Positions 11,361 through 60,148 are shown, numbered from the stretch's first letter. The stretch: DNA of 64,000 nt from an uncultured Muribaculaceae bacterium (GCA_964546995.1 CAZJKO010000002.1:3498-67497), one strand, 5' to 3'. Numbers and translations: made by a program. Notes: generated by a model from the sequence alone, not told the origin.

Positions 11361-12113
11361 ATGAAAGTACGCTCATTTAAAAAGAAAGCCAATGGATTCT
11401 ATCAAGTATTATTAGAAGAAACAGAACCCCTACTCATCCATGAAGATTTAATACTAAAATACGACATCTTAAAAAAACAAAAACTAGAAGAAGAAACCAT
11501 TAGACAAATAGAAGAAGAAAACAAAAAATACGTAGTATATCAAGATGCTCTTGCATCACTAAAAACAAGACTAAGAAGTACCAAAGAATTAAAAGAACGA
11601 CTCACAAAAAAAGAATATCCCAAAAAGGAAATCGAAGAAGTAATCGCTACTTTAACAAAGCAAGGCTATCTAAACGATAAAATTTATGCTGACTCGTTTG
11701 TCCATGATAAAATTTCTTTTTCTAAAGATGGACCAGAAAAAATAAAAGAAGAGTTATTACGCCTTGGGATAAAAACAGAATACATAGAACAGGCCCTTTG
11801 TTGTTTTACAAGCGACATAGAACAGATGAGAATCAAAAAAATCATCGACAAAGAAACAAAGACCAATCGAACTAAATCGGAAGTCATATTAAAAAGAAAA
11901 CTATTAGAAAATCTAGTGAGAAACGGTTACCATAAAGAATATATCACTCCCCTACTAGAAAAAGCAAAAAATCAAAATGAAAAATCAATCTACCAAAAAG
12001 AGTACGAAAAACAAAAAAAGAAATTAGAAAAAAAATATCAAGGAAAAGAACTAGAATACAAACTAAAAGAGAAAATGTACCAAAAAGGATTTCACTATGA
12101 AAGCATGGATTAA
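11361..12113 (+). CDS. recX: recombination regulator RecX
   Basis: 250 aa with three-repeat helical RecX architecture (...YLNDKIYADSFVHDKI...LLENLVRNGYHKEYI...). RBS AAAGGTGA. Not adjacent to recA here, as in Bacillus. Confidence 0.75.
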   Translation: MKVRSFKKKANGFYQVLLEETEPLLIHEDLILKYDILKKQKLEEETIRQIEEENKKYVVYQDALASLKTRLRSTKELKERLTKKEYPKKEIEEVIATLTKQGYLNDKIYADSFVHDKISFSKDGPEKIKEELLRLGIKTEYIEQALCCFTSDIEQMRIKKIIDKETKTNRTKSEVILKRKLLENLVRNGYHKEYITPLLEKAKNQNEKSIYQKEYEKQKKKLEKKYQGKELEYKLKEKMYQKGFHYESMD

Positions 12114-13521
12114 AAATCATCAAAAAGAAATATCTCTAGGCCTCTATCTCTTAGGATTCACTACTCTAATACTCTTGTTTACTCACACTGGATTCGACTA
12201 TTTTTGGCATAAAAAAGCAGGAGAAATCATGATGAACGAAAAAAGAATTCTAACAGTAGACCTTTTCAGTTGGACTGCCTATCAGAAACCGTGGATTTCT
12301 CATGAATGGCTAAGTGAAATAATCTTATATTTGTACCATATCATATTTAAAGGTCATAGCATCACTCTATACTGTGGAACCTTTTTACTAATACTCTATT
12401 TCTTTCTTTATATGACGAATAAAAAAGCAATGTTAAAAAACGTTCGTTTCACTATCATTTGGTTCTTCTTAAGTACTTTTATGATCGGAGGAAGCATCGC
12501 CCCAAGACCACAGATGATCAGTTATGTATTGCTTGCTATCACACTCTTTTTACTCTATCAAAAAAAGAACGATGAAAACAACAAAACCATTTATCTTCTA
12601 CCAATCGTTTCAATCATTTGGGCAAACGTCCATGGTGGCTCATCGAACCTTCCCTACCTATTAAGTCTCATTTTCTTTTTAAGTAGCATGATTTCCATTA
12701 ATCAAGAAAAAATAGAAAGCAAGTCACAAACAAAAAAACAAACCATTTCTTTTTTAATCGTTACAATTCTATCATTTCTTGCAATAACAATAAATCCACA
12801 TGGAATAAAATTACTAACGTACCCTTATGAAAATATGCAAGATAGCTTCATGCTAAATACTATCCAAGAATGGCGTCATTTAAATATCAACAACATAAGC
12901 GACCTAATCATACTAATCATGCCACTAATAACCATAACAATCTTAATCAAAACCAACAAAAAACACGACATTCTAGATTTAATCGTGCTCTTGCTATTCA
13001 CTTACCTACTTTTCAAAAGTGTAAGATTTGCCCCACTCTTCTTCATTGCAAGCACCTATATTGTATTTAAGTACATCAAAGAAAAACCTTACCACACCAA
13101 CCTAAATATCCTACTTCCCATCTTTGGACTAATATTTATCACATTCTTTCTAACCAAAGAAAAAGAACTCCAACTTAGAATAAATGAACCAGTAGTAAGT
13201 AACGAAATGATCGAAACCATAAAAGAACATCATCCAGAACATCTCTATAATTATTATGATTACGGAGGATATTTAATCGATAAAAACATAAAAGTATTTA
13301 TCGATGGTCGTGCCGACCTTTATTCCAAATATAATTACAAAGACTTCTATCACCTAACCTTTCTAAATCAAAACTATTTAGAAATATTAGAAGAATACAA
13401 CTTCGATTATCTCTTAGTCAAAAACCAAACACCACTAGCATATTACTTAAAAAACAATCAAGAATACCAGATCATAAAAGAAGAAAAATCTATAACTCTA
13501 TACAAAAAAGCTTTAGAATAA
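12097..13521 (+). CDS. polytopic membrane protein (about 12 TM) with C-terminal soluble domain; possible GT-C-type glycosyltransferase (YfhO/ArnT/PMT-like), low confidence
   Basis: 474 aa, hydrophobic N-terminal 350 aa with many TM helices, then a soluble C-terminal domain (...KVFIDGRADLYSKYNYKDFYHL...). Overlaps recX by 17 nt. A bidirectional terminator follows at about 13505..13540. Confidence 0.45.
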   Translation: MKAWIKNHQKEISLGLYLLGFTTLILLFTHTGFDYFWHKKAGEIMMNEKRILTVDLFSWTAYQKPWISHEWLSEIILYLYHIIFKGHSITLYCGTFLLILYFFLYMTNKKAMLKNVRFTIIWFFLSTFMIGGSIAPRPQMISYVLLAITLFLLYQKKNDENNKTIYLLPIVSIIWANVHGGSSNLPYLLSLIFFLSSMISINQEKIESKSQTKKQTISFLIVTILSFLAITINPHGIKLLTYPYENMQDSFMLNTIQEWRHLNINNISDLIILIMPLITITILIKTNKKHDILDLIVLLLFTYLLFKSVRFAPLFFIASTYIVFKYIKEKPYHTNLNILLPIFGLIFITFFLTKEKELQLRINEPVVSNEMIETIKEHHPEHLYNYYDYGGYLIDKNIKVFIDGRADLYSKYNYKDFYHLTFLNQNYLEILEEYNFDYLLVKNQTPLAYYLKNNQEYQIIKEEKSITLYKKALE

Positions 13522-13542
13522 ACCCTAAAGCCTTTTTTATTG

Positions 13543-15990
13543 CTATTTATCAATCACGACGACAGCACGAGCACCAAAGCTTGTACCCGTCGTGTTGAAG
13601 TTACTATTCACGCGACCGCCATAATTCACAAACAATGCAATCGACGACGTACTAGAAGAATATGCCGACATGGTCCAATATCCATAATTGTTTCCGTATT
13701 CTCCTCCAGTTACAGTTACTGTTCCCCCATAACTTGTTGAATTATATAAATAATTATTCATCCATGTGGGACAACTTTGAATAGAACTTGTACATCCTAA
13801 TCCTCCTGCTTCTTGCGCTGTAATCATCCGCGCCTTCCCTGTACGCTGTGATAATGTATACAGATTCGCTGTACAACTAACTCCTGAACTATCATATGTA
13901 CATCCTGTAAAAGCATTTGTCTTGAATGTGGTACTCCCAAGCGTATAGGTTTGATCTTTTACATTGGTCCAAGAAGATGTTGCACTCTCCAAAGCTGGTA
14001 ATACCGTTAATGGTCCCTTACTATTATCGGATGCCGCTTCGTACCATGCCGTTTTATAAATCGTATTCTCCCTTTGTTGCATCACTAAAGTATCTCCTTC
14101 ATCAAACATAACATGGAAGTATTTTATTTCACTTGCATTGACTTTGTATTTGATAATGGTTCCTGCTGTATACGTTGTCTGTGGTCCAATTTCTACACAA
14201 GTACTCTCCTCACCTGTTTGACAACTACTTGTATTATATCGATAAACTGCTACAATGTTAGAATTAGCAGGTAAAAGAACTTTAATATTTCCATTTGGAT
14301 GAGATACGGTTCCTCCTACAAATGTTGCACTACTACTTCCTCCTGTAATACTCTTCCAATCGAAACTTCTTCCTGTTTTATTATCGATAGTAACTAATCC
14401 CTTGTTACTTGTTGCACTTTTATAGAACGCATTCGTTCCAATTGATGTAACTGTCGTTGGAATAATAATACTAGTTAGATTATTATTTAGGAACACTTCA
14501 TTTCCTATGGTTGTTGTACCACTAGGTATCACCACACTAACTAAATTGTTATATGCCATCGATTTTGATCCAAGTGTTTTAACACTAGTTGGAATAATGA
14601 CATTTGTCGTTTTTGCTCCTCCATAACTAACTAACACACTCGTATTGTTACTTCCATCACTATTCTTTTGATAGAAGAAAGCATTACTATCAGGGAGTTT
14701 ATTGTTATTGAAAGCAGCATTCCCTAAATAAGTTAATGAGCTTGGTACTTCAACATTCATTAAATTGTTATTAGCAAATGCTTGAGTACCAATTGATGTA
14801 ACTGTCTCCGGGATAACGACACTCGTTATCTTTTTATTTTCAAAAGCATTATTTCCAATCGCTAATACTTCCGTTCCGCCAATTGTATTGGGTATCGTAA
14901 CATCACGAATCGTTTGATAGCCTTCACTATTTCCTTCATAACATAAATAATTACTTATCGTTCCAGTACTTGAATCAAATACAAAACAACTTTCTCTTAC
15001 TGCCGATTCTTTCATTTGTGCTCTTAAACTAGCTTGTAGTGAATAACTATTTGCTTCTTCCTCACTTACACTCTCATCGATCCATAGTCTTAGTTCATAT
15101 TCATTTGTTGTCCCTGCTTCGATCTTTCCTGTATCTAACACTCGTTCTCCTTCTACTAGAGTATTAGATAACGTATCAATGGGCATAGCTTCCTGATTCT
15201 TAACGAGTTGGTATTTTACTTTATCTGAAGGTGCTCCCACACTTCGCATTCTAAACGTACTAACATCATCTAATGTTACAGTATAATTACTTACATCACT
15301 TGATGTATTCTTTAATGAAAAGCGATATGGTTCTAGTTTCACACCTTCTTCATCAGTAGTTGGTACATTTCCATCTTCACTAAAACCAATCTCATTCGTT
15401 CCTAAAATATTCATGTTCAAGTTTTCTTCATTTAATACTGTCTCTGTTACTTGTGTTCCTACTACTCTTAGTTTTCCTCTTAATACTTGGCCCATCACTT
15501 CATTAGAGGCATTTTTATCAATCCATAGTCTTAGATCATAAGTAATCGTTTGTCCACCTTTAATGGTACCATGATCTAAGATTCGATTTGGATTTACCCC
15601 TAAAGCAGAAAGTAAAGCAGTTTTTGTTCTTGTGTCTTTCACGAGATTGTACTTTACCTTATTATCCGCCATTCTTGTTTCATTTTCTTCTAAAGCGATA
15701 TCATCAAAGTAGATTGTATACTCTACATACTCACTTCCTTCATTAATTAAAGTGAAGTGATAGGGATCTAACTTCTCTCCATCTTCGTCCAACATCGGAA
15801 CTGCTTTATCTTCATTGATTCCAATACTATTTTCTTCATCTAATCTTAACGAAAGTGTTCCTGATTTTAATACATTTACTTTGGTTCCATTTAAGGTAAG
15901 TGTGAACCATGCGTAGCTTCCTCCGATCAATAAAACAACTACTAGTAACACACTCATGCAGGTCATGAATATTTTCTTATTCTTTTCCAT
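13543..15990 (-). CDS. large surface protein: SipW-cognate-type signal peptide + two TasA/camelysin-like (M73-like) repeats + BspA-type leucine-rich repeats + Gly/Ser/Thr/Tyr-rich C-terminal domain
   Basis: 815 aa. N-terminus MEKNKKIFMTCMSVLLVVVLLIGGSYAWFTLTLNGTKVNVLKSGTLSL resembles TasA-type signals (..VGGGTWAAFND....ASGTLDL). Two internal repeats share ...KLDPYHFTL.NEGSE...KVKY.LVK...LRLWID.... LRR_5/BspA-like units (IP.TVTSIG..AF..N.L) fill residues about 370-520. RBS GAGGTG. Confidence 0.7.
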   Translation of the reverse strand: MEKNKKIFMTCMSVLLVVVLLIGGSYAWFTLTLNGTKVNVLKSGTLSLRLDEENSIGINEDKAVPMLDEDGEKLDPYHFTLINEGSEYVEYTIYFDDIALEENETRMADNKVKYNLVKDTRTKTALLSALGVNPNRILDHGTIKGGQTITYDLRLWIDKNASNEVMGQVLRGKLRVVGTQVTETVLNEENLNMNILGTNEIGFSEDGNVPTTDEEGVKLEPYRFSLKNTSSDVSNYTVTLDDVSTFRMRSVGAPSDKVKYQLVKNQEAMPIDTLSNTLVEGERVLDTGKIEAGTTNEYELRLWIDESVSEEEANSYSLQASLRAQMKESAVRESCFVFDSSTGTISNYLCYEGNSEGYQTIRDVTIPNTIGGTEVLAIGNNAFENKKITSVVIPETVTSIGTQAFANNNLMNVEVPSSLTYLGNAAFNNNKLPDSNAFFYQKNSDGSNNTSVLVSYGGAKTTNVIIPTSVKTLGSKSMAYNNLVSVVIPSGTTTIGNEVFLNNNLTSIIIPTTVTSIGTNAFYKSATSNKGLVTIDNKTGRSFDWKSITGGSSSATFVGGTVSHPNGNIKVLLPANSNIVAVYRYNTSSCQTGEESTCVEIGPQTTYTAGTIIKYKVNASEIKYFHVMFDEGDTLVMQQRENTIYKTAWYEAASDNSKGPLTVLPALESATSSWTNVKDQTYTLGSTTFKTNAFTGCTYDSSGVSCTANLYTLSQRTGKARMITAQEAGGLGCTSSIQSCPTWMNNYLYNSTSYGGTVTVTGGEYGNNYGYWTMSAYSSSTSSIALFVNYGGRVNSNFNTTGTSFGARAVVVIDK

Positions 15991-16151
15991 TTCTTACACC
16001 TCTACTCTAATACTCATTATAGTATAACTTCTTTTCTTTTTATTATTTTGTCTAATTTTTAGATATTTATGACACGAAAAATACAGAGTACATTCTACCC
16101 TGTATTTTTGCATATTAAAGAAGTGTGAGTCTTTACTTGTCTAGTAAGTTG

Positions 16152-16160
16152 CCCCCCCCC
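16152..16160. repeat. homopolymeric C9 (G9 on minus strand) tract in the 5' region of the large surface-protein gene
   Basis: gccccccccc at 16151-16160 in a roughly 30% GC genome, about 160 nt upstream of the ATG at 15990. Confidence 0.8.
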
Positions 16161-16246
16161 AAGTACGAATTTCTTGACAATTTTTCATCCCGTTCACTCC
16201 TCATATTTTTTACTAAAAGAATACCACAACTGTTAACAAAAGTAAA

Positions 16247-17554
16247 TTAGAATGGCATCTTCATTTTTCCATTAGAAAACTGCTTCATCATTTTTTTCAT
16301 GTTCTCAAACTGAATCAATAGTTGATTGACTTCTTGAACACTAAGACCACACCCTTTAGCAATTCTCGTTTTTCGACTTGCCTTGATAATATCGGGATTG
16401 CGTCTTTCCTTAGGCGTCATCGATAAAATAATCGCTTCAATATGCCCTAATTTTTTAGGATCGATCGAAACATTGTTTAAACCCATCTTAGAAGCACCTG
16501 GCAACATCTTAAGCAAATTTTCAAGAGGTCCTAATTTGCGAATTTGTTTCATGTTAGTAAGAAAATCTTCTAAATCAAATTTTCCACTTTGCATTTTTCT
16601 TGCTGATTTTTCTGCTTCTTTTTCGTCGATGACTTCCGTTGCTTTTTCCACAAGGGAAACGATATCACCCATACCTAAAATTCTTCCAGCCATACGTTCA
16701 GGATCGAACGGTTCCAATCCATCTAACTTTTCACTAACACCTATCATTTTGATCGGTACATCCGTCAAATGACGAACCGAAAGAGCAACTCCACCTCTCG
16801 TATCTCCATCTAACTTAGTTAAAATAACACCCGTTAATGGTAATTTATCATGAAAACCCGTAATGACATGAATGGCATCTTGCCCCATCATCGAATCGAT
16901 AACAAGCAATACTTCGTGTGGATGAAGAGCTTCGTTCATCTGTTCCAATTCATCCATCAAGGCATCATCGATATGGAGTCTTCCTGCTGTATCGATTAAT
17001 ATATAATCGTATCCGTTTTCTTTTGCTTCCTCGATCGCATGGCGAGCAATCGTAACAGGATCCCCATTTCCTTCCTCGTATACCGGAATTCCAAGCTGAG
17101 ACCCAATCTGCTTCAATTGATCGATTGCAGCGGGACGATAGACATCACACGCGACCAAAAGTGGCTTTTTAGCATGCTTCTTCCGCAAGAAATTCGCAAG
17201 CTTCCCGATCGTTGTCGTCTTTCCACTTCCCTGCAATCCCACTAACATGAGAATAGAAGGTTTAGACGACGTGTGAAGAGGACTCGCTTCCCCACCCAAA
17301 AGATTGGTGAGTTCATCTTTCACAATCTTAACAAACAAATCGCCTGGTCGAATACTCGTCCTAACTTCTTCCCCAAGGGCTTTTTCTTTCACTGTATTCG
17401 TAAATTCTTTTACTACTTTATAGTTGACATCCGCTTCCAAAAGAGCAAGACGAATTTCTCTCATCATATCGGAAATATTTTCTTCCGTAATTTTTCCATA
17501 TCCCTTGATTTTATGAATCGCATTTTGGAGCCGCTCTCCTAAACTTTCAAACAT
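16247..17554 (-). CDS. ffh: signal recognition particle protein Ffh
   Basis: 435 aa. GTPase motifs GLQGSGKTT, DTAGR, TKLDGD. M-domain with a Met-rich C-terminus. Confidence 0.95.
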   Translation of the reverse strand: MFESLGERLQNAIHKIKGYGKITEENISDMMREIRLALLEADVNYKVVKEFTNTVKEKALGEEVRTSIRPGDLFVKIVKDELTNLLGGEASPLHTSSKPSILMLVGLQGSGKTTTIGKLANFLRKKHAKKPLLVACDVYRPAAIDQLKQIGSQLGIPVYEEGNGDPVTIARHAIEEAKENGYDYILIDTAGRLHIDDALMDELEQMNEALHPHEVLLVIDSMMGQDAIHVITGFHDKLPLTGVILTKLDGDTRGGVALSVRHLTDVPIKMIGVSEKLDGLEPFDPERMAGRILGMGDIVSLVEKATEVIDEKEAEKSARKMQSGKFDLEDFLTNMKQIRKLGPLENLLKMLPGASKMGLNNVSIDPKKLGHIEAIILSMTPKERRNPDIIKASRKTRIAKGCGLSVQEVNQLLIQFENMKKMMKQFSNGKMKMPF

Positions 17555-17578
17555 AACCTTTCCCTCCTCAAAATATCA

Positions 17579-19342
17579 TCACGAATGAGTCGTTGTATTC
17601 CAATTTTTCACAACATCACAATTGCCACTCTTAGGTTCTGGTGATGGCATTGCTAACTTTACAATTAAAGGAATCTTAAATGCTCGACCAAAAGCAAGAC
17701 AAGTACCAGATTGTAAACTTTTCTGTTTTTCCACAATCTCTTCTGAAATATTAGGAACCATTTTTTTAATGTATTCGACATCCGTTGGATGGTTCATCTT
17801 AAAAATAAGAAAATTAGAACATTGCGAAATAACTGTATCCGAAAGCTCCACTGGTCTTTGAGAAATAAGTCCTAAAATGAGCCCGTACTTACGTCCTTCT
17901 TTTGCTACTCGATCAAAAATATTGTATCCAATTAAATATTGATCCCGATCATTTTGAATGTAACGATGTGCTTCCTCTACCAAAATATGAAATGGAATCG
18001 AAGCTCGATTAGGAAGTGCCTTCGTAAATTCAAAAAGTAATCTCGTATAAATTTTCGTAATAACTTTCGCAAAATCATCATCGACATCATCTAAATTAAT
18101 ATTGACAATCTGATATTTTTTCCCATCGGTAATAAGTAATGAGGTAAGGTACTGTTCCAACGTAATGTACTGTTTTACCTCAAAGTATTTCGCATAACTT
18201 CCTGTAATCAAAGAATGAAGACGAACCTTAATCGTAACAGCATCCCCATACGTATTTTCATTGCGAAGCCATCCCTCACTAATCAACGTAAAATTGAGTG
18301 CTTTTTCTAAATCAGGTAACGTATAAAAAGATTCCCCTTTTGGTTCGTAATTATCGAATTCTGGTTTAATGAACCCAGAAACATATTCGGTCAAAAGAAC
18401 ACTTTCGGTAAATTGACCAGCAGAATCGATTAAAAAACATTCCCGGAATTTTCGAACGTAACCAATTCCCTGTACCGGTGCTTCTAAATTAAATTCCGGT
18501 GTCGAACAACTAGCTAAAATAGAAAAAACATCGTTACGCTTGTTAGGAGACGTCTGATTAGTATATAAAATGGTCATAATTGCCTTAGCAATTAAATGAT
18601 TCTTATAAAGGTTGGAATCACTTCCCGTTTCCGCAAAAATGCGAGCCAACTTAAGCATTCTTTCGATAATGGGAAGTTGGGAATGCTCTGTTGCAGAAAG
18701 AAGAAGGGCCAAATCACTAGAATTAAGTAACCAAATAGGTAGACGTAATGCTTCTCCAATCCCATCTGTCTCATTCGTTGTATAAAATTTATAATGATAA
18801 TTTGGATTCATTTCGCTAATACTTTGAAAAGCATGATAGTATTCCCCAGAAGAATCGAATAACAACAAATTCGATTTATAAGGAAAGAGTCTCTTATCCA
18901 AAAACATATTTTGAATAATTCTGGCAATGCCACAACTCTTCCCGCTACCACTATTACCAAAAATAGCAAAGTGATTACTAAAGAAAGCATTCACATCCAT
19001 ATAAATAGGGTGATCATTGTAAAATGGACTAACACCCAAAAGCATATTACCCGGCTTGTTCTCCCCAACAATAAGAGGAATTTCTTCTTCTTTAATCACC
19101 CGAATAGAAGCATCGAGTGAAGGTTTACGAATGACTCCTCCAAAAAGAACTCCATTGATAAGTTCTCCTAAAAAACGGACCCTTACAATTCCTTCATTCA
19201 AATCGTCCACTTCTCCTAGTATCTTTTTATCAGAATCCTCAAAAATAACATGTAAATTCATAAGATTGATGGTAAGTGGCACATCGGGATTCAACTTTAC
19301 ATGTGCCAAATGATCACTAATATAAACAATTTTATCAAACAT
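17579..19342 (-). CDS. HerA-like ATPase (HAS-barrel + FtsK/HerA-clade P-loop NTPase, DUF87)
   Basis: 587 aa. N-terminal HAS-barrel-like region, Walker A FGNSGSGKS, Walker B HILVEEAH (DEAH-like), arginine-finger region SQRP. ATG is 3 nt from the upstream GNAT stop. Lies 24 nt upstream of ffh. Confidence 0.7.
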   Translation of the reverse strand: MFDKIVYISDHLAHVKLNPDVPLTINLMNLHVIFEDSDKKILGEVDDLNEGIVRVRFLGELINGVLFGGVIRKPSLDASIRVIKEEEIPLIVGENKPGNMLLGVSPFYNDHPIYMDVNAFFSNHFAIFGNSGSGKSCGIARIIQNMFLDKRLFPYKSNLLLFDSSGEYYHAFQSISEMNPNYHYKFYTTNETDGIGEALRLPIWLLNSSDLALLLSATEHSQLPIIERMLKLARIFAETGSDSNLYKNHLIAKAIMTILYTNQTSPNKRNDVFSILASCSTPEFNLEAPVQGIGYVRKFRECFLIDSAGQFTESVLLTEYVSGFIKPEFDNYEPKGESFYTLPDLEKALNFTLISEGWLRNENTYGDAVTIKVRLHSLITGSYAKYFEVKQYITLEQYLTSLLITDGKKYQIVNINLDDVDDDFAKVITKIYTRLLFEFTKALPNRASIPFHILVEEAHRYIQNDRDQYLIGYNIFDRVAKEGRKYGLILGLISQRPVELSDTVISQCSNFLIFKMNHPTDVEYIKKMVPNISEEIVEKQKSLQSGTCLAFGRAFKIPLIVKLAMPSPEPKSGNCDVVKNWNTTTHS

Positions 19343-19345
19343 AAT

Positions 19346-19858
19346 TTATCTCCCCTTTTTACGTTTATTTTCATAATTTAAATTAAACTTTTCAAAACAA
19401 ATTCGCCCAACACCATTTAACCCTTGAACATACTCATCGGTATCGTAAGTAAATCCCGCTGCCATCGCCGTCTTCATACTAGGATAATTTCCTTGATCGA
19501 TATCGAGTAAAACTTTTTCCACAGGATAAGTGGAAAACAAGTAATCGCTAATTTCTTCTAGTAGTTTACTTGCATACCCTTTCTTTCTTTTTGAAGGAAC
19601 AATCAAGTACTCGAGATAAATCGAATCTCTCTTAAGTCCACCAAGATAAAGATAGCCAATCAATTCATCGTGGAAAGAAACCAAATAAGCCCTTTCAAAA
19701 AAAGAATTGTTTTGATAACTCGATCGATGAAGTCGCTCAGGAATCTGTTTGACAAATCCCTCTTCATTTCCAAGTGATAATTTCTCAAGAAAAGAACGAT
19801 GGTTTTGATTTTCTTGATCAAATACGACTAATTCAAAGGAACCTCCAGGATAGACCAT
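19346..19858 (-). CDS. GNAT-family N-acetyltransferase
   Basis: 170 aa. Acetyl-CoA motif A-like ...LEYLIVPSKRKKGYASKLLEEI.... Starts 16 nt downstream of ylxM. Confidence 0.7.
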   Translation of the reverse strand: MVYPGGSFELVVFDQENQNHRSFLEKLSLGNEEGFVKQIPERLHRSSYQNNSFFERAYLVSFHDELIGYLYLGGLKRDSIYLEYLIVPSKRKKGYASKLLEEISDYLFSTYPVEKVLLDIDQGNYPSMKTAMAAGFTYDTDEYVQGLNGVGRICFEKFNLNYENKRKKGR

Positions 19859-46044: not shown

Positions 46045-47226
46045 CTAACTATTTTTAATAAGATCCAAAGTATCTCTTGCAATCATCAATTCTTCATCTG
46101 TTGCTAGAACATAACAATCGACCAAAGAATCCTCTGTACTGATCTTTGTCAATTCAGAACCCACTTTGACCGTAGCATCTAACTTAATGCCAAGACAAGC
46201 AAGTTTTTCCATAACTCGCATTCGAATAGGAACACTATTTTCTCCAATTCCCGCTGTAAAGCAAATCACATCAGCGCCACCTAACAACACGTAGTACTGA
46301 GCAATGTAAGAAACGACAGTCTTCACATATTTTTCTAGAGCAATTTCACACTTTTCATCGCCTTCTTGTGCACCAAGAATAATATCTCTTGCATCACTAC
46401 TGCGACAAGAAAGTCCTAAGAAACCGGATTTCTTATTTAAGTCATCGATGACTTCACTTGCATTCTTTCCTTCTTTTTCCATCACATAAGGAATAATAGA
46501 AGGATCGATATCACCAGAACGTGTTCCCATCATAATTCCAGCCAAAGGGGTAAATCCCATCGAAGTATCCACACACTTTCCATCCTTAATTGCCGTAATA
46601 CTACCGCCATTACCCAAGTGACAACTGATAATTTTTAAATCGTTTTTCCCTAGCTTATCTTGAAGCGTAAGTGAAACATATCGGTGACTCGTTCCATGTG
46701 CTCCATACTTTCTCACTTTATAATCTTGATACCAGGAATAAGGAACTGGATAAAGATAAGAAACAGGATCCATCGTCTGATGAAAAGCCGTATCGAACAC
46801 AACGACCATCGGAACAGAAGGAAGAACCTCCTTAAATGCTTTAATTCCTTGCACATGGGCAGGATTATGTAGAGGTGCAAAATCCTTTAAAAGAAGTAAA
46901 TCTTCAATAACTTTATCCGTAACCAAAACAGACTTCTGATAAAGATCCCCCCCATGAACGACACGATGTCCTACTCCTTCAATTTCAGAAAGAGAAGAAA
47001 TCACGGAAAGATCGATTAATTTATCCAAAAGAATCTTTACGGCCTCTTCATGGTTTTCAAGTGGAATTTCTTGTTCAACTTTTTGTCCTTGATATTTAAT
47101 CACATAATTACTACCAGCAATACCAATTCGTTCAAACAAACCACTAGCTAAAACCTCTTCCGTATCCATCTCTAAAAGACGAAATTTTAAAGAACTACTT
47201 CCTGCATTAATAGACATTATTTTCAT
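46045..47226 (-). CDS. ackA: acetate kinase
   Basis: 393 aa. MKIMSINAGSSSLKF... N-terminal acetate/propionate kinase signature and VHLGNGGS-like motif. Confidence 0.9.
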   Translation of the reverse strand: MKIMSINAGSSSLKFRLLEMDTEEVLASGLFERIGIAGSNYVIKYQGQKVEQEIPLENHEEAVKILLDKLIDLSVISSLSEIEGVGHRVVHGGDLYQKSVLVTDKVIEDLLLLKDFAPLHNPAHVQGIKAFKEVLPSVPMVVVFDTAFHQTMDPVSYLYPVPYSWYQDYKVRKYGAHGTSHRYVSLTLQDKLGKNDLKIISCHLGNGGSITAIKDGKCVDTSMGFTPLAGIMMGTRSGDIDPSIIPYVMEKEGKNASEVIDDLNKKSGFLGLSCRSSDARDIILGAQEGDEKCEIALEKYVKTVVSYIAQYYVLLGGADVICFTAGIGENSVPIRMRVMEKLACLGIKLDATVKVGSELTKISTEDSLVDCYVLATDEELMIARDTLDLIKNS

Positions 47227-58924: not shown

Positions 58925-60148
58925 TTAATAATGAAATACAAAATACTTCTTCTTTCCTCGCCTTAAAATGATGTATTTAGAATGAAGAGCTTGATCTTTA
59001 CAAATAACAAAATCTTCATCCGTGACTTTATTCCCATTGATCGTAATAGAACCATTGCGAATAAATTCTCTCGCTTCGCGCTTGCTACTACAAATATGTT
59101 GTTCAGTAAGCAAATCGATAAGTGGAATAGAAGAAGAAAGAGAACAGCTAGGAAGCCCTTTAAACGCTTCTTCTACTTGTGATAAACTAAGATGTTGAAT
59201 ATCGCCTGTAAATAGAGATTTACTAATAGCTACAGCCTCTAAATAAGCATCTTCCCCATGTAAAAATACAATCACATCTTTAGCTAAAGCTTTATGAGCC
59301 TCTCTTCCCTCTGGAAAAAGCTTATGCTCTTCTTCCAACGCCTTAATCTCATCGACCGATAAAAAAGTCAAATACTTCAAATAATCGATAACCTTCTCAT
59401 CTTCGACATTTAAAAAGAATTGATATAACTCATATGGAGAAGTCTTCTCGCGATCTAGCCAAATAGCTCCTCCCTCACTTTTCCCAAATTTAGTTCCATC
59501 GGCCTTCGTCAAAAGAGGCATCGTAAGTCCATACGCTTCTCCCCCTACCTTTTTACGAATAAGTTCAATACCAGAAGTAATATTTCCCCATTGATCTTGT
59601 CCCCCAAGTTGTAACACACAATTGTGATTCAAATACAAATGAAGAAAATCCAAAGCCTGTAAAATCATATACGAAAACTCAGTATAAGTAATACCGATAT
59701 CGAGTCTACTCTTAACCGTTTCTTTATTAAGCATATAATTAAGATTAAAATATTTTCCGTAATCTCTTAGATAATCCAAAAAATGAATCTCTTTACTCCA
59801 ATCGTAATTATTAACGACCGTAAATCCAAAAATTTCCTCCACTTGCTTTCTCAATTTTTGATAATTGTAATCGAGTTGTTCTTTGGTAATCATCGGCCGT
59901 TCTGCATTAGGTTTAGGATCCCCAATTAACCCTGTCGCTCCACCAACCAACAAAATGGGATGATGTCCTGCCTCTTTAAGCCTACGTGCCATCGAAAACG
60001 TCGAATAATGCCCAATATGCATACTATCTCCTGTTGGATCTGTCCCAATATAAAAAGTAAGCCCCCCTTTGTTTAACTTTTCAATCAAATCAGGACTACT
60101 AATATCATTAATGAGCCCTCTCCATTTCAATTCTTCAAATAATGTCAT
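58925..60148 (-). CDS. tyrS: tyrosine--tRNA ligase
   Basis: 407 aa. Class I HIGH (HIGH at ...SMHIGHYSTF), KMSKS-like KFGKS, C-terminal S4 domain. Confidence 0.9.
   Translation of the reverse strand: MTLFEELKWRGLINDISSPDLIEKLNKGGLTFYIGTDPTGDSMHIGHYSTFSMARRLKEAGHHPILLVGGATGLIGDPKPNAERPMITKEQLDYNYQKLRKQVEEIFGFTVVNNYDWSKEIHFLDYLRDYGKYFNLNYMLNKETVKSRLDIGITYTEFSYMILQALDFLHLYLNHNCVLQLGGQDQWGNITSGIELIRKKVGGEAYGLTMPLLTKADGTKFGKSEGGAIWLDREKTSPYELYQFFLNVEDEKVIDYLKYLTFLSVDEIKALEEEHKLFPEGREAHKALAKDVIVFLHGEDAYLEAVAISKSLFTGDIQHLSLSQVEEAFKGLPSCSLSSSIPLIDLLTEQHICSSKREAREFIRNGSITINGNKVTDEDFVICKDQALHSKYIILRRGKKKYFVFHY

What the first reader, a model, noticed from the sequence alone, without database searches (positions are those of the whole stretch)
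13543..16160. C9/G9 homopolymer in the leader of a large surface protein with TasA-type signal, camelysin-like repeats and BspA-type LRRs: candidate phase-variable surface or matrix protein
An 815-aa exported protein has an N-terminus (….LLVVVLLIGGSYAWFTLTLNGTKVNVLKSGTLSL…) that closely follows the SipW-cognate signal-peptide pattern of TasA/CalY. It is followed by two TasA/camelysin-like repeats, a block of BspA-type leucine-rich repeats and a G/S/T/Y-rich C-terminal domain. About 160 nt upstream of its start there is a run of nine C (gccccccccc, 16151-16160), which is striking in a genome of about 30% GC. Such tracts cause slipped-strand length variation and ON/OFF or level switching of surface antigens. 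No sipW gene is present in this window. The combination of a TasA-like domain, LRR adhesin module and a possible contingency-locus tract appears undescribed.
Basis: partly seen in the sequence, partly recalled or inferred. Interest (0 to 1): 0.6.

Follow-up and report, generated by a model that had tools for sequence, protein, structure and literature searches.

The report
Poly-G leader-peptide switch before surface-protein gene
The run of nine G's lies inside a tiny upstream reading frame followed by a transcription stop signal. Dozens of related secreted-protein genes in uncultured gut Bacilli share this layout, which probably makes each gene switch on or off heritably when the G-run gains or loses one base.

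Summary
There is a G9 run (C9 on the + strand) at 16152-16160, 161 nt upstream of the 815-aa gene (13543-15990, minus strand). It is the only run longer than 7 in the window.

It is not a bare leader tract. It lies inside a 15-codon leader ORF with a good ribosome-binding site (ATG at 16188). The ORF follows an extended -10 promoter and precedes a hairpin plus T-run terminator (16111-16076).
- With G9 or G10 the leader stops 35 or 27 nt before the hairpin (off).
- With G8 or G11 it runs on to a TAG in the hairpin loop (on).

In about 955 kb of related loci from uncultured gut Bacilli:
- All 43 runs of G8 or longer are on the sense strand, upstream of genes for secreted proteins with the same signal type.
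- Twenty-one distinct cassettes show the same two-class pattern of leader stops.
- The hairpin shows compensatory base changes.

This layout matches the leader-peptide attenuation switch shown experimentally for Streptococcus gallolyticus pil1/pil3 (GCAGA repeats). Here it uses a homopolymer and is spread over a multigene family.

Not shown: tract-length variation in reads, and the size of the effect, because a conserved TATAAT downstream of the terminator may give basal expression.

On the protein, the BspA-type LRR block is confirmed. The TasA likeness covers only about the first 60-80 residues. The C-terminal part is a conserved C-type-lectin-like domain, not a low-complexity tail.

The parts
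16247..17554 (-). ffh (signal recognition particle protein), the gene directly upstream. Its stop codon is at 16249-16247.
   Evidence: ORF and translation; coordinates.
16218..16246 (-). Candidate promoter P1 for the leader: -35-like TTTACT (16246-16241), 17-nt spacer, extended -10 TGgTATTCT (16226-16218). The -10 ends 29 nt before the leader ATG.
   Evidence: An extended -10 (TGnTAnnnT) lies 24-33 nt before the leader ATG in many cassettes; a score of 6 or more occurs in 45% of 38 cassettes against 8.9% of random windows. Sequence-level inference only. The consensus scan did not list it.
16195..16202 (-). Shine-Dalgarno sequence GAGGAGTG of the leader ORF, 6 nt before the ATG.
   Evidence: Among related tracts of G8 or longer, 20 of 37 have an SD match of 5 nt or more plus an ATG open to the tract, against 6.7% at random positions.
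16141..16188 (-). Leader ORF as assembled (G9): MKNCQEIRTWGGATY*, with stop TAG at 16143-16141, 35 nt before the hairpin (predicted off state).
16152..16160 (-). G9 homopolymer (C9 on the + strand), codons 10-12 of the leader ORF. This is the presumed slipped-strand site.
16095..16097 (-). TAG that ends the leader ORF in the G8/G11 frame (30-31 aa, ...QLTRQVKTHTSLICKNTG*). It lies in the loop of the terminator hairpin (predicted on state). The G7/G10 frame stops at TAA 16135-16133.
   Evidence: There is a stop at the same loop position in L079 (TAG) and L080 (TAA).
16076..16111 (-). Intrinsic-terminator-like hairpin. Core stem ATACAGGGTA/TACTCTGTAT at 16105-16081 (dG -10.8). It is extended by A-run/U-run pairing to dG -15.9. 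T-run at 16080-16076.
   Evidence: In an alignment of 21 homologous hairpins, 10 pairs are predicted and 7 have compensatory double changes, followed by an invariant T-run. The consensus scan missed it, probably because the A-run pairs with the T-run.
16016..16021 (-). TATAAT, a candidate second promoter (P2) -10 box downstream of the terminator, 25 nt before the main ATG. No good -35 at 17 nt.
   Evidence: It is conserved together with the 5' UTR in L076 (TGaTATAAT, an extended -10) and L080, but absent in L079 and in many other cassettes.
15997..16002 (-). Shine-Dalgarno sequence GAGGTG of the 815-aa gene.
13543..15990 (-). 815-aa secreted protein. Signal peptide about residues 1-27 (...LLIGGSYA|WF). 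Two beta-sandwich repeats at about 35-188 and 178-333 (nt 15888-14992). BspA-type LRR block at about 340-575 (nt 14973-14266). Conserved C-type-lectin-like C-terminal domain at 571-815 (nt 14280-13546).

Best explanation
The G9 run is the variable element of a leader-peptide attenuator that controls read-through into the 815-aa surface-protein gene.

Proposed mechanism:
1. Transcripts come from a promoter just after ffh, and probably also from ffh itself. They carry a 15-codon leader ORF that contains the G-run, followed 46 nt later by an intrinsic terminator.
2. With G9 or G10 the ribosome stops 35 or 27 nt before the hairpin. The hairpin forms and transcription ends (off or low).
3. Loss or gain of G's by replication slippage to G8 or G11 shifts the leader into the one frame that stays open for 30-31 codons. 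That frame ends at a TAG in the hairpin loop.
4. A ribosome reading that frame covers the 5' arm of the hairpin, prevents termination, and lets RNA polymerase run into the gene (on or high).

What is shown:
- The anatomy of the cassette.
- Its recurrence and conservation across a multigene family.
- Covariation in the hairpin.
- The two-class distribution of leader stop positions.

What is inferred:
- That the tract length actually varies.
- That the leader is translated.
- That the ribosome suppresses the terminator.
- That this matters for expression, given a possible second promoter (TATAAT at 16021-16016) that would make the switch a level change rather than strictly on/off.
For: Anatomy in the window:
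- Extended -10, SD GAGGAGTG, ATG at 16188, G9, hairpin plus T-run.
- G9 stops 35 nt before the hairpin and G10 stops 27 nt before it. G8/G11 stop inside the loop.

Recurrence in related loci:
- 38 of 38 G/C runs of 7 or more in the first 75 loci, and all 10 in 48 further loci, are G on the sense strand.
- There are 43 tracts of G8-G12 (13, 19, 9 and 2 tracts of 9, 10, 11 and 12).
- 23 of 40 tracts have a hairpin plus T-run starting 20-50 nt downstream, against 1.3% of random windows. 20 of 37 have an SD plus ATG leader, against 6.7%.

Frame pattern in 21 distinct cassettes:
- Off-frame stops end 15-41 nt before the hairpin.
- The on-frame stops 7-86 nt past the hairpin start.
- Nothing falls in between.
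- In 16 of 20 non-redundant cassettes exactly one frame reaches the hairpin, against 9.4 expected from shuffles.

Closest relatives of the window's cassette:
- L079 (G10, off) and L080 (G6, on) put the on-frame stop at the same loop position and give a similar on-frame peptide.

Other support:
- Hairpin covariation: 7 of 10 pairs have compensatory double changes.
- In many cassettes the main SD and ATG follow the T-run by only 10-30 nt, leaving no room for a separate promoter. Expression there must pass through the terminator.
- Every complete gene found downstream of a G8+ tract but one encodes a secreted protein with the same xYAxF-type signal.

Precedent:
- In S. gallolyticus pil1/pil3, out-of-frame changes in GCAGA repeats lengthen a leader peptide so that its stop lies within or after a terminator hairpin, giving high expression. 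Leaders that stop 28-39 nt upstream give low expression (PMC3894217).
- Terminator efficiency falls when a stop codon lies close to the terminator (PMC4824070 abstract).
Against: - No read-level or strain-level variation in tract length could be examined. No identical copy of the 815-aa protein or of Ffh exists in the searchable assemblies.
- The only near-orthologous pairs differ at the base adjoining the tract, not clearly in length: L007 G10+T against L083 G11, and L029 G11+T against L089 G11+A. Such differences could be sequencing error.
- A conserved TATAAT lies downstream of the terminator in the window, L076 and L080. It could express the gene independently of the switch.
- In L076 the leader and tract are absent while the hairpin and this promoter remain.
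- The cassettes are homologous to one another, so the statistics are not independent.
- Tight coupling of translation to transcription is thought to be weak in some Firmicutes (my own knowledge). However, ribosome-mediated attenuation has been reported in B. subtilis (PMC4191407) and S. gallolyticus.
- The consensus scan did not call the promoter or the terminator.
Confidence: 0.6

Rival explanations
1. The cassette is a relic or passenger in the window. The hairpin simply terminates ffh, the 815-aa gene is transcribed from its own TATAAT promoter (16021-16016), and the G9 run has no effect on it.
For: - The TATAAT and 5' UTR are conserved in the window, L076 (TGaTATAAT) and L080.
- L076 has lost the leader and tract but keeps the hairpin, this promoter and an intact gene.
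- Some family genes have no cassette at all, for example L010 and L022.
Against: - The window's leader is intact: SD, ATG, a long G9, and an on-frame that stays open to the loop stop exactly as in L079 and L080.
- Decayed cassettes look different. L070 has a stop before the tract, and L037 and L026 have broken tracts.
- Long G-runs are otherwise absent from these AT-rich genomes.
- The TATAAT has no -35 or TG extension in the window.
Confidence: 0.17
2. The G-run is slippery for RNA polymerase or the ribosome, not mainly for DNA replication. A fixed fraction of leader transcripts or translations then falls into the long frame. This gives constant partial read-through instead of a heritable switch.
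For: - The anatomy is the same as in the best explanation.
- Homopolymers of 9 or more are known sites of transcriptional slippage (my own knowledge).
- Near-orthologous pairs do not show clear differences in tract length.
Against: - Paralogous cassettes with very similar flanks carry G9, G10, G11 and G12, so the DNA length does change over time.
- Short G6 versions sit in the long frame in 4 of 8 cases, against 2 of 13 for long tracts. This is as expected if the DNA frame matters.
Confidence: 0.1
3. The tract sits in the spacer of a sigma-70-type promoter, and its length sets the -35/-10 distance. This is the classical mechanism for homopolymer switches.
For: - In other lineages of the same family the tract clearly lies between a TTGACA-like -35 and a TATAAT -10 with an 18-19 nt spacer. 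Examples are L034 (three copies), L040, L056, L099 and L119.
- In the CASRZP cassettes, TTAACT and TAAAAT-like hexamers flank the tract.
Against: - In the window the flanking hexamers are poor: CGTACT and TAGACA.
- Such a promoter would start transcription just upstream of the terminator.
- Spacers would range from 14 to 19 nt once the G6 versions are counted.
- The model does not explain the conserved SD plus ATG or the two-class stop pattern.
Confidence: 0.04
4. The G-run is a target in the mRNA leader for a C/U-rich small RNA or another factor, and its length tunes that pairing. This would resemble RepG and tlpB in Helicobacter pylori.
For: - A variable G-repeat in an mRNA leader is regulated by the small RNA RepG (PMC8295292 abstract).
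- In the Hadza-type cassettes the tract lies in the loop of a hairpin.
Against: - No small RNA partner is known and the genome is not available.
- Rfam finds nothing in the region.
- The model does not need or explain the leader ORF and its frame pattern.
Confidence: 0.04

Closest known systems
Streptococcus gallolyticus pil1/pil3 phase variation by leader-peptide attenuation (Danne et al. 2014, PMC3894217)
   Same: - The order is promoter, short leader ORF containing a simple repeat, intrinsic terminator, then surface-structure gene.
- Repeat changes shift the leader frame.
- Short leaders stop about 28-39 nt before the hairpin and give low expression.
- Long leaders stop within or after the hairpin and give high expression.
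- The window gives 35 and 27 nt for the off frames and a stop in the loop for the on frame.
   Different: - The repeat is a G homopolymer, not 13-22 GCAGA units.
- The genes are unrelated: LRR and C-type-lectin-like secreted proteins, not sortase pili.
- The cassette is spread over dozens of paralogues per genome in uncultured Bacilli.
- Nothing has been tested experimentally here.
- The window's copy may also have a second promoter.
Classical homopolymer contingency loci (my own knowledge): promoter-spacer tracts such as Mycoplasma hyorhinis vlp poly-A and Neisseria opc/porA, and in-frame tracts such as Neisseria pilC poly-G and Campylobacter
   Same: - A G/C run of 9-12 next to a surface-protein gene.
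- Expected slipped-strand length changes.
- Other members of this family use exactly these two layouts: a promoter-spacer tract in L034, L056 and L119, and an in-frame tract in L048 and L049.
   Different: In the window the tract is neither in the promoter spacer nor in the structural gene. It acts, if at all, through a separate leader ORF and a terminator.
Ribosome-mediated transcription attenuation (pyrBI and trp leaders, my own knowledge; B. subtilis bmrCD, PMC4191407)
   Same: The position of a ribosome on a leader ORF decides whether a downstream terminator hairpin forms.
   Different: The input here would be a heritable frame change in the DNA, not a metabolite or an antibiotic. No alternative antiterminator hairpin is needed.
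TasA/camelysin (Pfam Peptidase_M73) and SipW-dependent signal peptides
   Same: The N-terminus (K-rich, hydrophobic, GGSYA|WF, then ...SGTLSL...) resembles the TasA signal peptide and first strand. Pfam matches residues 4-62.
   Different: There is no match beyond about residue 62-80. No SipW-cognate NCBIfam hit was reported. No sipW gene is in the window. The fold search gives generic beta-sandwiches.
N-terminal C-type-lectin-like domain of the Thomasclavelia ramosa IgA peptidase (PDB 9qa6; PMC12237041)
   Same: It is the best structural match of the conserved C-terminal domain: Foldseek E 6.7e-3, probability 0.98, TM 0.45 over 284 columns. Weak hits to CD23 and mannose-binding-protein lectin domains follow. 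The paper describes that domain as an enlarged C-type-lectin-like core similar to the Legionella Lcl C-terminal domain.
   Different: Sequence identity is 11% and the similarity is at fold level only. The function of that domain is itself unknown.

Membership tests
Leader-peptide simple-repeat attenuation switch (pil1 type) | Short ORF with a ribosome-binding site that contains the repeat, downstream of a promoter | tested here: met
   - SD GAGGAGTG, ATG at 16188, and G9 in codons 10-12.
- Extended -10 TGgTATTCT 29 nt upstream.
- Sequence level only.
Leader-peptide simple-repeat attenuation switch (pil1 type) | Intrinsic terminator between the leader ORF and the structural gene | tested here: met
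   Hairpin at 16105-16081 (dG -10.8) plus TTTTT. Seven of 10 pairs covary across 21 homologous cassettes.
Leader-peptide simple-repeat attenuation switch (pil1 type) | Some repeat lengths stop the leader well upstream of the hairpin; others stop it within or after the hairpin | tested here: met
   - Window: G9 leaves 35 nt, G10 leaves 27 nt, and G8/G11 stop in the loop.
- Family: gaps of 15-41 nt against -7 to -86 nt, with no overlap.
Leader-peptide simple-repeat attenuation switch (pil1 type) | Expression depends on translation of the leader and on the terminator | not testable with these tools
   This needs ATG and terminator mutants or transcript mapping.
Slipped-strand contingency locus | Repeat long enough to be hypermutable, placed where its length changes expression | tested here: met
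   - G9, and G9-G12 in 43 related tracts.
- The position lies inside the leader ORF.
- Hypermutability is assumed from general knowledge.
Slipped-strand contingency locus | Tract length differs between cells, strains or reads | tested here: inconclusive
   - Paralogues with similar flanks carry G6 to G12.
- Two near-orthologous pairs differ only at the boundary base.
- Several contigs end at tracts.
TasA/camelysin (Peptidase_M73) | Profile match over the mature domain | tested here: not met
   - PF12389 matches only residues 4-62 (profile positions 3-59 of 196), at 23.0 bits against a cut-off of 22.5.
- hhalign against TasA covers the signal plus about 50 residues at 5.8% probability.
TasA/camelysin (Peptidase_M73) | SipW-cognate signal peptide and a sipW gene nearby | tested here: inconclusive
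   - The motif GGSYA|WF resembles TasA GGTWA|AF.
- No NCBIfam signal model was reported at E up to 1.
- No S26 peptidase was found in 20 window ORFs or by motif scan of the window and all loci.
- The rest of the genome was not seen.
BspA-type leucine-rich repeat proteins (LRR_5) | Pfam PF13306 match above the cut-off | tested here: met
   E 1.7e-28 and 99.5 bits against a cut-off of 27.7, in two stretches. There are partial matches to the HupY/LrrG and Gli349 models.
C-type-lectin-like domains (IgA peptidase N-terminal domain / Lcl C-terminal type) | Fold similarity of the C-terminal domain | tested here: inconclusive
   - The model has pLDDT 95.9.
- Foldseek against 9qa6 gives E 6.7e-3 and TM 0.45. 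Lectin hits have E above 3.

The most novel reading that the evidence does not exclude
Uncultured small-genome gut Bacilli carry a multigene family of dozens of secreted proteins per genome. The members share a TasA-like signal peptide and often the same C-type-lectin-like C-terminal domain. Many members are governed by poly-G contingency switches built in at least three, perhaps four, different ways:
- a leader-ORF transcription attenuator;
- a leader-ORF that unmasks the ribosome-binding site;
- an in-frame tract in the 5' coding region;
- a promoter-spacer tract.

This would be a large combinatorial surface-variation system in commensal Firmicutes, comparable in scale to the variable lipoprotein families of mycoplasmas. 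It would also be the first homopolymer version of the pil1-type attenuation switch.
Probability: 0.45. Interest if true: 0.8.

Novelty: new variant of a known kind. Interest (0 to 1): 0.66.

Why it matters
- The leader-peptide attenuation switch has been shown for two loci in one streptococcal species (PMC3894217), and my literature searches found no other case. Finding the same logic with a G homopolymer, repeated over a whole gene family in unrelated uncultured gut bacteria, would make it a general strategy.
- It would point to extensive heritable surface variation in commensal gut Bacilli known only from metagenomes. This bears on immune (IgA) evasion, phage resistance and strain persistence.
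- The hypothesis is directly testable with read-level tract counts in existing metagenomes and with simple reporter constructs.
- The tracts and repeated cassettes coincide with contig ends, so they probably fragment assemblies of these organisms.
- The conserved C-terminal domain is an unannotated family of at least 319 proteins.

Tried and rejected
- **First reading, replaced.** I first took the hairpin as just the ffh terminator, which would make the tract irrelevant. The related loci changed this view.
- **Promoter-spacer model.** I considered it for the window and rejected it: the hexamers are poor and the start would lie upstream of the terminator. It does hold for other lineages.
- **Exact look-ups failed.** The 815-aa protein, Ffh and P0001 are not on record, nor is P0016. 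Strain comparison was therefore impossible.
- **Metagenome DNA-pattern scan.** The scan for window-type cassettes found nothing, although L080 should match. That collection evidently lacks those contigs.
- **Shuffle test is weak.** The chance that at least one frame reaches the hairpin is 0.75-0.98 for a single cassette. Only the 'exactly one frame' count (16 of 20 against 9.4 expected) and the two-class distribution of gaps carry information.
- **No RNA family match.** Rfam in E-value mode found no family in the region.
- **PDB sequence searches** of the N- and C-terminal parts found nothing.
- **N-terminal model only moderate.** Overall pLDDT was 64.5, with the first repeat at 75-90. Its fold matches are generic beta-sandwiches with TM about 0.2.
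- **No organism name.** Cluster look-up gave none.
- **Failed helper.** My regular expression for the signal motif failed, so I read the N-termini by eye.
Full report
**1. The observation**

The gene is on the minus strand at 13543-15990 and encodes 815 aa. In its sense direction the upstream sequence reads ...cgtactt-G9-caactt..., with the nine G's at 16160-16152. The tract ends 161 nt before the ATG.

The window is 34% GC. This is its only G/C run longer than 7. The next longest, C7 at 46947 and C6 at 60062, lie inside coding regions. From the base composition I calculate about 0.03 such runs expected by chance.

**2. Local anatomy**

ffh ends at 16247. Reading downstream on the minus strand:
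- -35-like TTTACT (16246-16241) and extended -10 TGgTATTCT (16226-16218);
- Shine-Dalgarno GAGGAGTG (16202-16195);
- ATG at 16188, opening a 15-codon ORF (MKNCQEIRTWGGATY*) that contains the G-run;
- a hairpin with a 10-bp core, ATACAGGGTA/TACTCTGTAT, at 16105-16081 (dG -10.8; -15.9 with the flanking A/U pairs), followed by TTTTT;
- a TATAAT at 16021-16016;
- SD GAGGTG (16002-15997) and the main ATG at 15990.

The tract is therefore separated from the gene by a terminator-like hairpin and lies inside a small ORF with a good ribosome-binding site. The consensus scan called neither the promoter nor the terminator. Rfam finds nothing.

| Tract length | Leader stop | Position relative to hairpin |
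|---|---|---|
| G9 | TAG 16143-16141 | 35 nt before |
| G7 / G10 | TAA 16135-16133 | 27 nt before |
| G8 / G11 | TAG 16097-16095 (30-31 codons) | in the hairpin loop |

**3. Related loci change the picture**

Homologues form a modular family, as follows.
- All members have a signal peptide.
- It is followed by one or two copies of an N-terminal beta domain.
- Some members carry an LRR_5 block or other repeats.
- The protein ends in a conserved C-terminal domain of about 245 aa.

A scan of species-representative genomes found 75 loci. Nearly all are in a handful of uncultured Bacilli, 'Tenericutes' or Clostridia-labelled MAGs. More than 35 come from one MAG (CASRZP01), about 14 from CAOKBR01 and about 12 from a Hadza gut MAG (CAKPLP01). 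A metagenome scan added 43 loci, many labelled human gut.

- In the first 700 kb (29% GC) there are 38 G/C runs of 7 or more, and all are G on the sense strand of the family gene.
- In 48 further loci (255 kb) all 10 such runs are G on the oriented + strand. One of them (L120) is in an unrelated, higher-GC context.
- In total there are 43 tracts of G8-G12, and I saw no C run of 7 or more.
- Every complete gene found downstream of such a tract but one encodes a protein with a K-rich, hydrophobic N-terminus ending in an xYAxF motif. The exception is a prepilin-like gene in L040.

**4. The cassette**

The window, its closest relatives (L079, L080) and the CASRZP/CAOKBR/OOIH loci share the same order of parts: an extended -10, SD, ATG, a leader ORF of 8-20 codons with the G-run near its 3' end, a hairpin plus T-run, then the SD and ATG of the family gene.

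Enrichment over background:
- 23 of 40 tracts have a hairpin plus T-run starting 20-50 nt downstream, against 1.3% of random windows.
- 20 of 37 have an SD match of 5 nt or more plus an ATG open to the tract, against 6.7%.
- An extended -10 (TGnTAnnnT) lies 24-33 nt before the leader ATG. A score of 6 or more occurs in 45% of cassettes against 8.9% of random windows.

The hairpins align across subfamilies. Of 10 predicted pairs, 7 show compensatory double changes, and an invariant T-run follows.

In 21 distinct cassettes the three possible leader frames fall into two classes with nothing in between. Off-frames stop 15-41 nt before the hairpin. One frame per cassette stops 7-86 nt past the hairpin start. 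In 16 of 20 non-redundant cassettes exactly one frame reaches the hairpin, against 9.4 expected from shuffles. The chance that at least one frame reaches it is high in any case, so that weaker statistic carries little information, and the cassettes are homologous and not independent.

In the window's subfamily the long frame ends at the same loop position in all three members: TAG in the window, TAG in L079, TAA in L080. The long-frame peptides are also alike (QLTRQVKTHTSLICKNTG and QFTRHVNVSTSFLCFHTG).

In many cassettes the main SD and ATG follow the T-run by only 10-30 nt. Examples are L014, L019, L029, L024, L011, L018 and L079. Transcription of those genes must pass through the terminator.

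At the assembled lengths, 2 of 13 long tracts are in the long frame, against 4 of 8 short (G6-G7) versions.

**5. Mechanism and precedent**

This layout matches a mechanism shown experimentally for Streptococcus gallolyticus pil1 and pil3.
- Addition or loss of GCAGA repeats in a leader-peptide gene changes the leader's length.
- Leaders that stop 39 nt (at least 28 nt) before a stem-loop terminator give low expression.
- Leaders whose stop lies within or after the hairpin prevent its formation and give high expression (PMC3894217).
- A study in E. coli reports that terminator efficiency falls when the terminator is close to a stop codon (PMC4824070 abstract).

For the window I therefore propose the following:
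- G9 and G10 are off or low.
- G8 and G11 are on or high.
- Switching is by replication slippage in the G-run.

Shown: the anatomy, its recurrence, hairpin covariation and the frame pattern. Inferred: hypermutability, leader translation, ribosome-mediated antitermination, and the size of the effect.

**6. Caveats for the window's copy**

- A TATAAT with its downstream 5' UTR is conserved in the window, L076 (as TGaTATAAT) and L080. The gene may thus have basal expression independent of the terminator, which would make this a level switch.
- In L076 the leader ORF and tract are missing while the SD-like GGAGTG, the hairpin and this promoter remain.
- Two near-orthologous pairs differ only at the base next to the tract: L007 G10+T against L083 G11, and L029 G11+T against L089 G11+A. 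This could be true boundary mutation or homopolymer sequencing error.
- Paralogues with very similar flanks do carry G9, G10, G11 and G12.
- Several contigs begin or end at tracts (L064, L088, L019, L040, L011, L026, L034).

**7. Other switch layouts in the same family**

- **Promoter spacer.** L034 (three copies), L099, L119, L056 and L040 have the tract between a TTGACA-like -35 and a TATAAT or TATACT -10, with 18-19 nt spacers.
- **In-frame.** In L048 and L049 of the Hadza MAG, the leader ATG plus G-run is continuous in one frame with the signal peptide of the main ORF, which has no other start.
- **Possible unmasking of the ribosome-binding site.** In L033, L042, L052 and L058 there is no terminator.
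  - A predicted hairpin sequesters the main SD instead.
  - The longest leader frame stops inside the 5' arm of that hairpin, at TAA or TGA 36-37 nt after the tract.
  - The other two frames stop at about +6/+8 and +16/+17.
  - This case rests on folding prediction only.

**8. The protein**

- **LRR block.** LRR_5 is solid at E 1.7e-28.
- **TasA/camelysin likeness.** It is confined to the N-terminus.
  - Peptidase_M73 matches residues 4-62 at 23.0 bits against a cut-off of 22.5.
  - No SipW-cognate model was reported by NCBIfam.
- **N-terminal domain.**
  - It is duplicated at 38% identity.
  - It is predicted as a beta-sandwich: overall pLDDT 64.5, first repeat 75-90.
  - PDB matches are generic, such as RbmA and FimH, with TM about 0.2. 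TasA is not in the top 50.
- **C-terminal domain (residues 571-815).** It is not low-complexity.
  - It is shared by at least 319 unannotated proteins without Pfam domains.
  - It is predicted with pLDDT 95.9.
  - It is most similar to the T. ramosa IgA peptidase structure 9qa6 (E 6.7e-3, TM 0.45), followed by weak C-type lectin hits.
  - The paper on that enzyme describes its N-terminal domain as an enlarged C-type-lectin-like core related to the Legionella Lcl C-terminal domain.
  - I infer a ligand- or cell-wall-binding role, but this is untested.
- **Signal peptidase.** None was found among 20 window ORFs or by a motif scan.

**9. Context**

The window carries ordinary Firmicutes housekeeping genes: a class A penicillin-binding protein, RecU, DnaD, Nth, RecX, S4 and NDK. 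The organism therefore has a cell wall. NCBI labels for the related MAGs are Bacilli, Tenericutes or Clostridia.

**10. Verdict**

- The phase-variation idea is supported by strong comparative evidence, but it works through a specific and already described kind of mechanism, and it has not been verified at read level.
- The protein annotation is only partly right.
- Novelty: a new variant of a known kind. It uses a homopolymer instead of a pentanucleotide repeat, a multigene family instead of two loci, and a different lineage.
- Literature searches found only the S. gallolyticus case for this mechanism.

Noticed in passing
L033:5711, L042:5719, L052:5724, L058:5749 (Hadza gut MAG CAKPLP01): These cassettes have no terminator. 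A predicted hairpin sequesters the main gene's Shine-Dalgarno sequence, and the longest of the three leader frames stops (TAA or TGA) inside that hairpin's 5' arm. The other two frames stop about 20-30 nt earlier. This may be a translational-unmasking version of the same poly-G switch. The G-run itself sits in the loop of a first hairpin (GTTCTAGT...ACTAGAAC).
   Followed up: partly
L048:5774 and L049:5775: The leader ATG plus G-run is continuous in one frame with the signal peptide of the main ORF (...NIFKKNYKFLIGL...), which has no other start codon. This is a classical in-frame poly-G switch. Both copies are assembled in an off length (G11 and G9).
   Followed up: partly
L034:1445, 2250, 9210; L099:77; L119:2963; L056:5695; L040:20: In these lineages the G9-G10 run lies between a TTGACA-like -35 and a TATAAT or TATACT -10 (spacers 18-19 nt). 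In L034 and L099 it directly follows a terminator hairpin. This is the classical promoter-spacer layout. The L040 tract precedes a prepilin-like gene (MIKKIEEKDGFTLIELL...).
   Followed up: partly
L064:1, L088:1, L019:38, L040:20, L011:7926, L026:3181, L034:9210: Contigs of several independent assemblies begin or end at or within about 50 nt of a poly-G tract. The tracts or repeated cassettes probably break the assemblies of these organisms.
   Followed up: no
L076:3800-4000: In the closest relative (P0002, 72% identity in the N-terminal part) the leader ORF and G-run are missing between the SD-like GGAGTG and TAGATAAGTAAA. The hairpin, a perfect extended -10 (TGaTATAAT) and the 5' UTR are kept.
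   Followed up: partly
L083:4113 compared with L007:3386: These are near-identical cassettes from two assemblies. L083 lacks the leader ATG (gtggaaaaaagaaaaaaaacc in place of gtgcgaatatggaaattaacc) and has G11 where L007 has G10+T. It may be a locked-off variant or an assembly error.
   Followed up: no
window 13546-14280 (-): The C-terminal 245 aa form an unannotated conserved domain: at least 319 proteins, none listed with a Pfam family covering this domain, and invariant Cys, Trp and Arg positions. The predicted structure has very high confidence and a C-type-lectin-like fold.
   Followed up: partly
window 16247-19858 (-): ffh is preceded by a DUF87/HerA-like ATPase (17579-19342) and a GNAT acetyltransferase (19346-19858). 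It is followed by the switch cassette, not by rpsP, which often follows ffh in Firmicutes (my own knowledge).
   Followed up: no
window 46947-46953 and 60062-60067: These are the only other G/C runs of 6 or more (G7 and G6 in the sense of the minus-strand genes). Both lie inside long ORFs (46045-47226 and 58925-60148), coding ...VVHGGDLYQ... and ...NKGGLTF.... I treated them as ordinary glycine codons.
   Followed up: partly
homologues listed (for example P0028, P0041-P0043, P0065): Many proteins with the same BspA-type LRR block carry a prepilin-type N-terminal methylation domain (PF07963) instead of the TasA-like signal. The LRR module is therefore combined with different export signals.
   Followed up: no
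window 12097-13531 (+): A 474-aa multi-pass membrane protein without any Pfam match converges on the 815-aa gene. A hairpin plus T-run at 13510-13531 between the two stop codons may act as a terminator in both directions.
   Followed up: no
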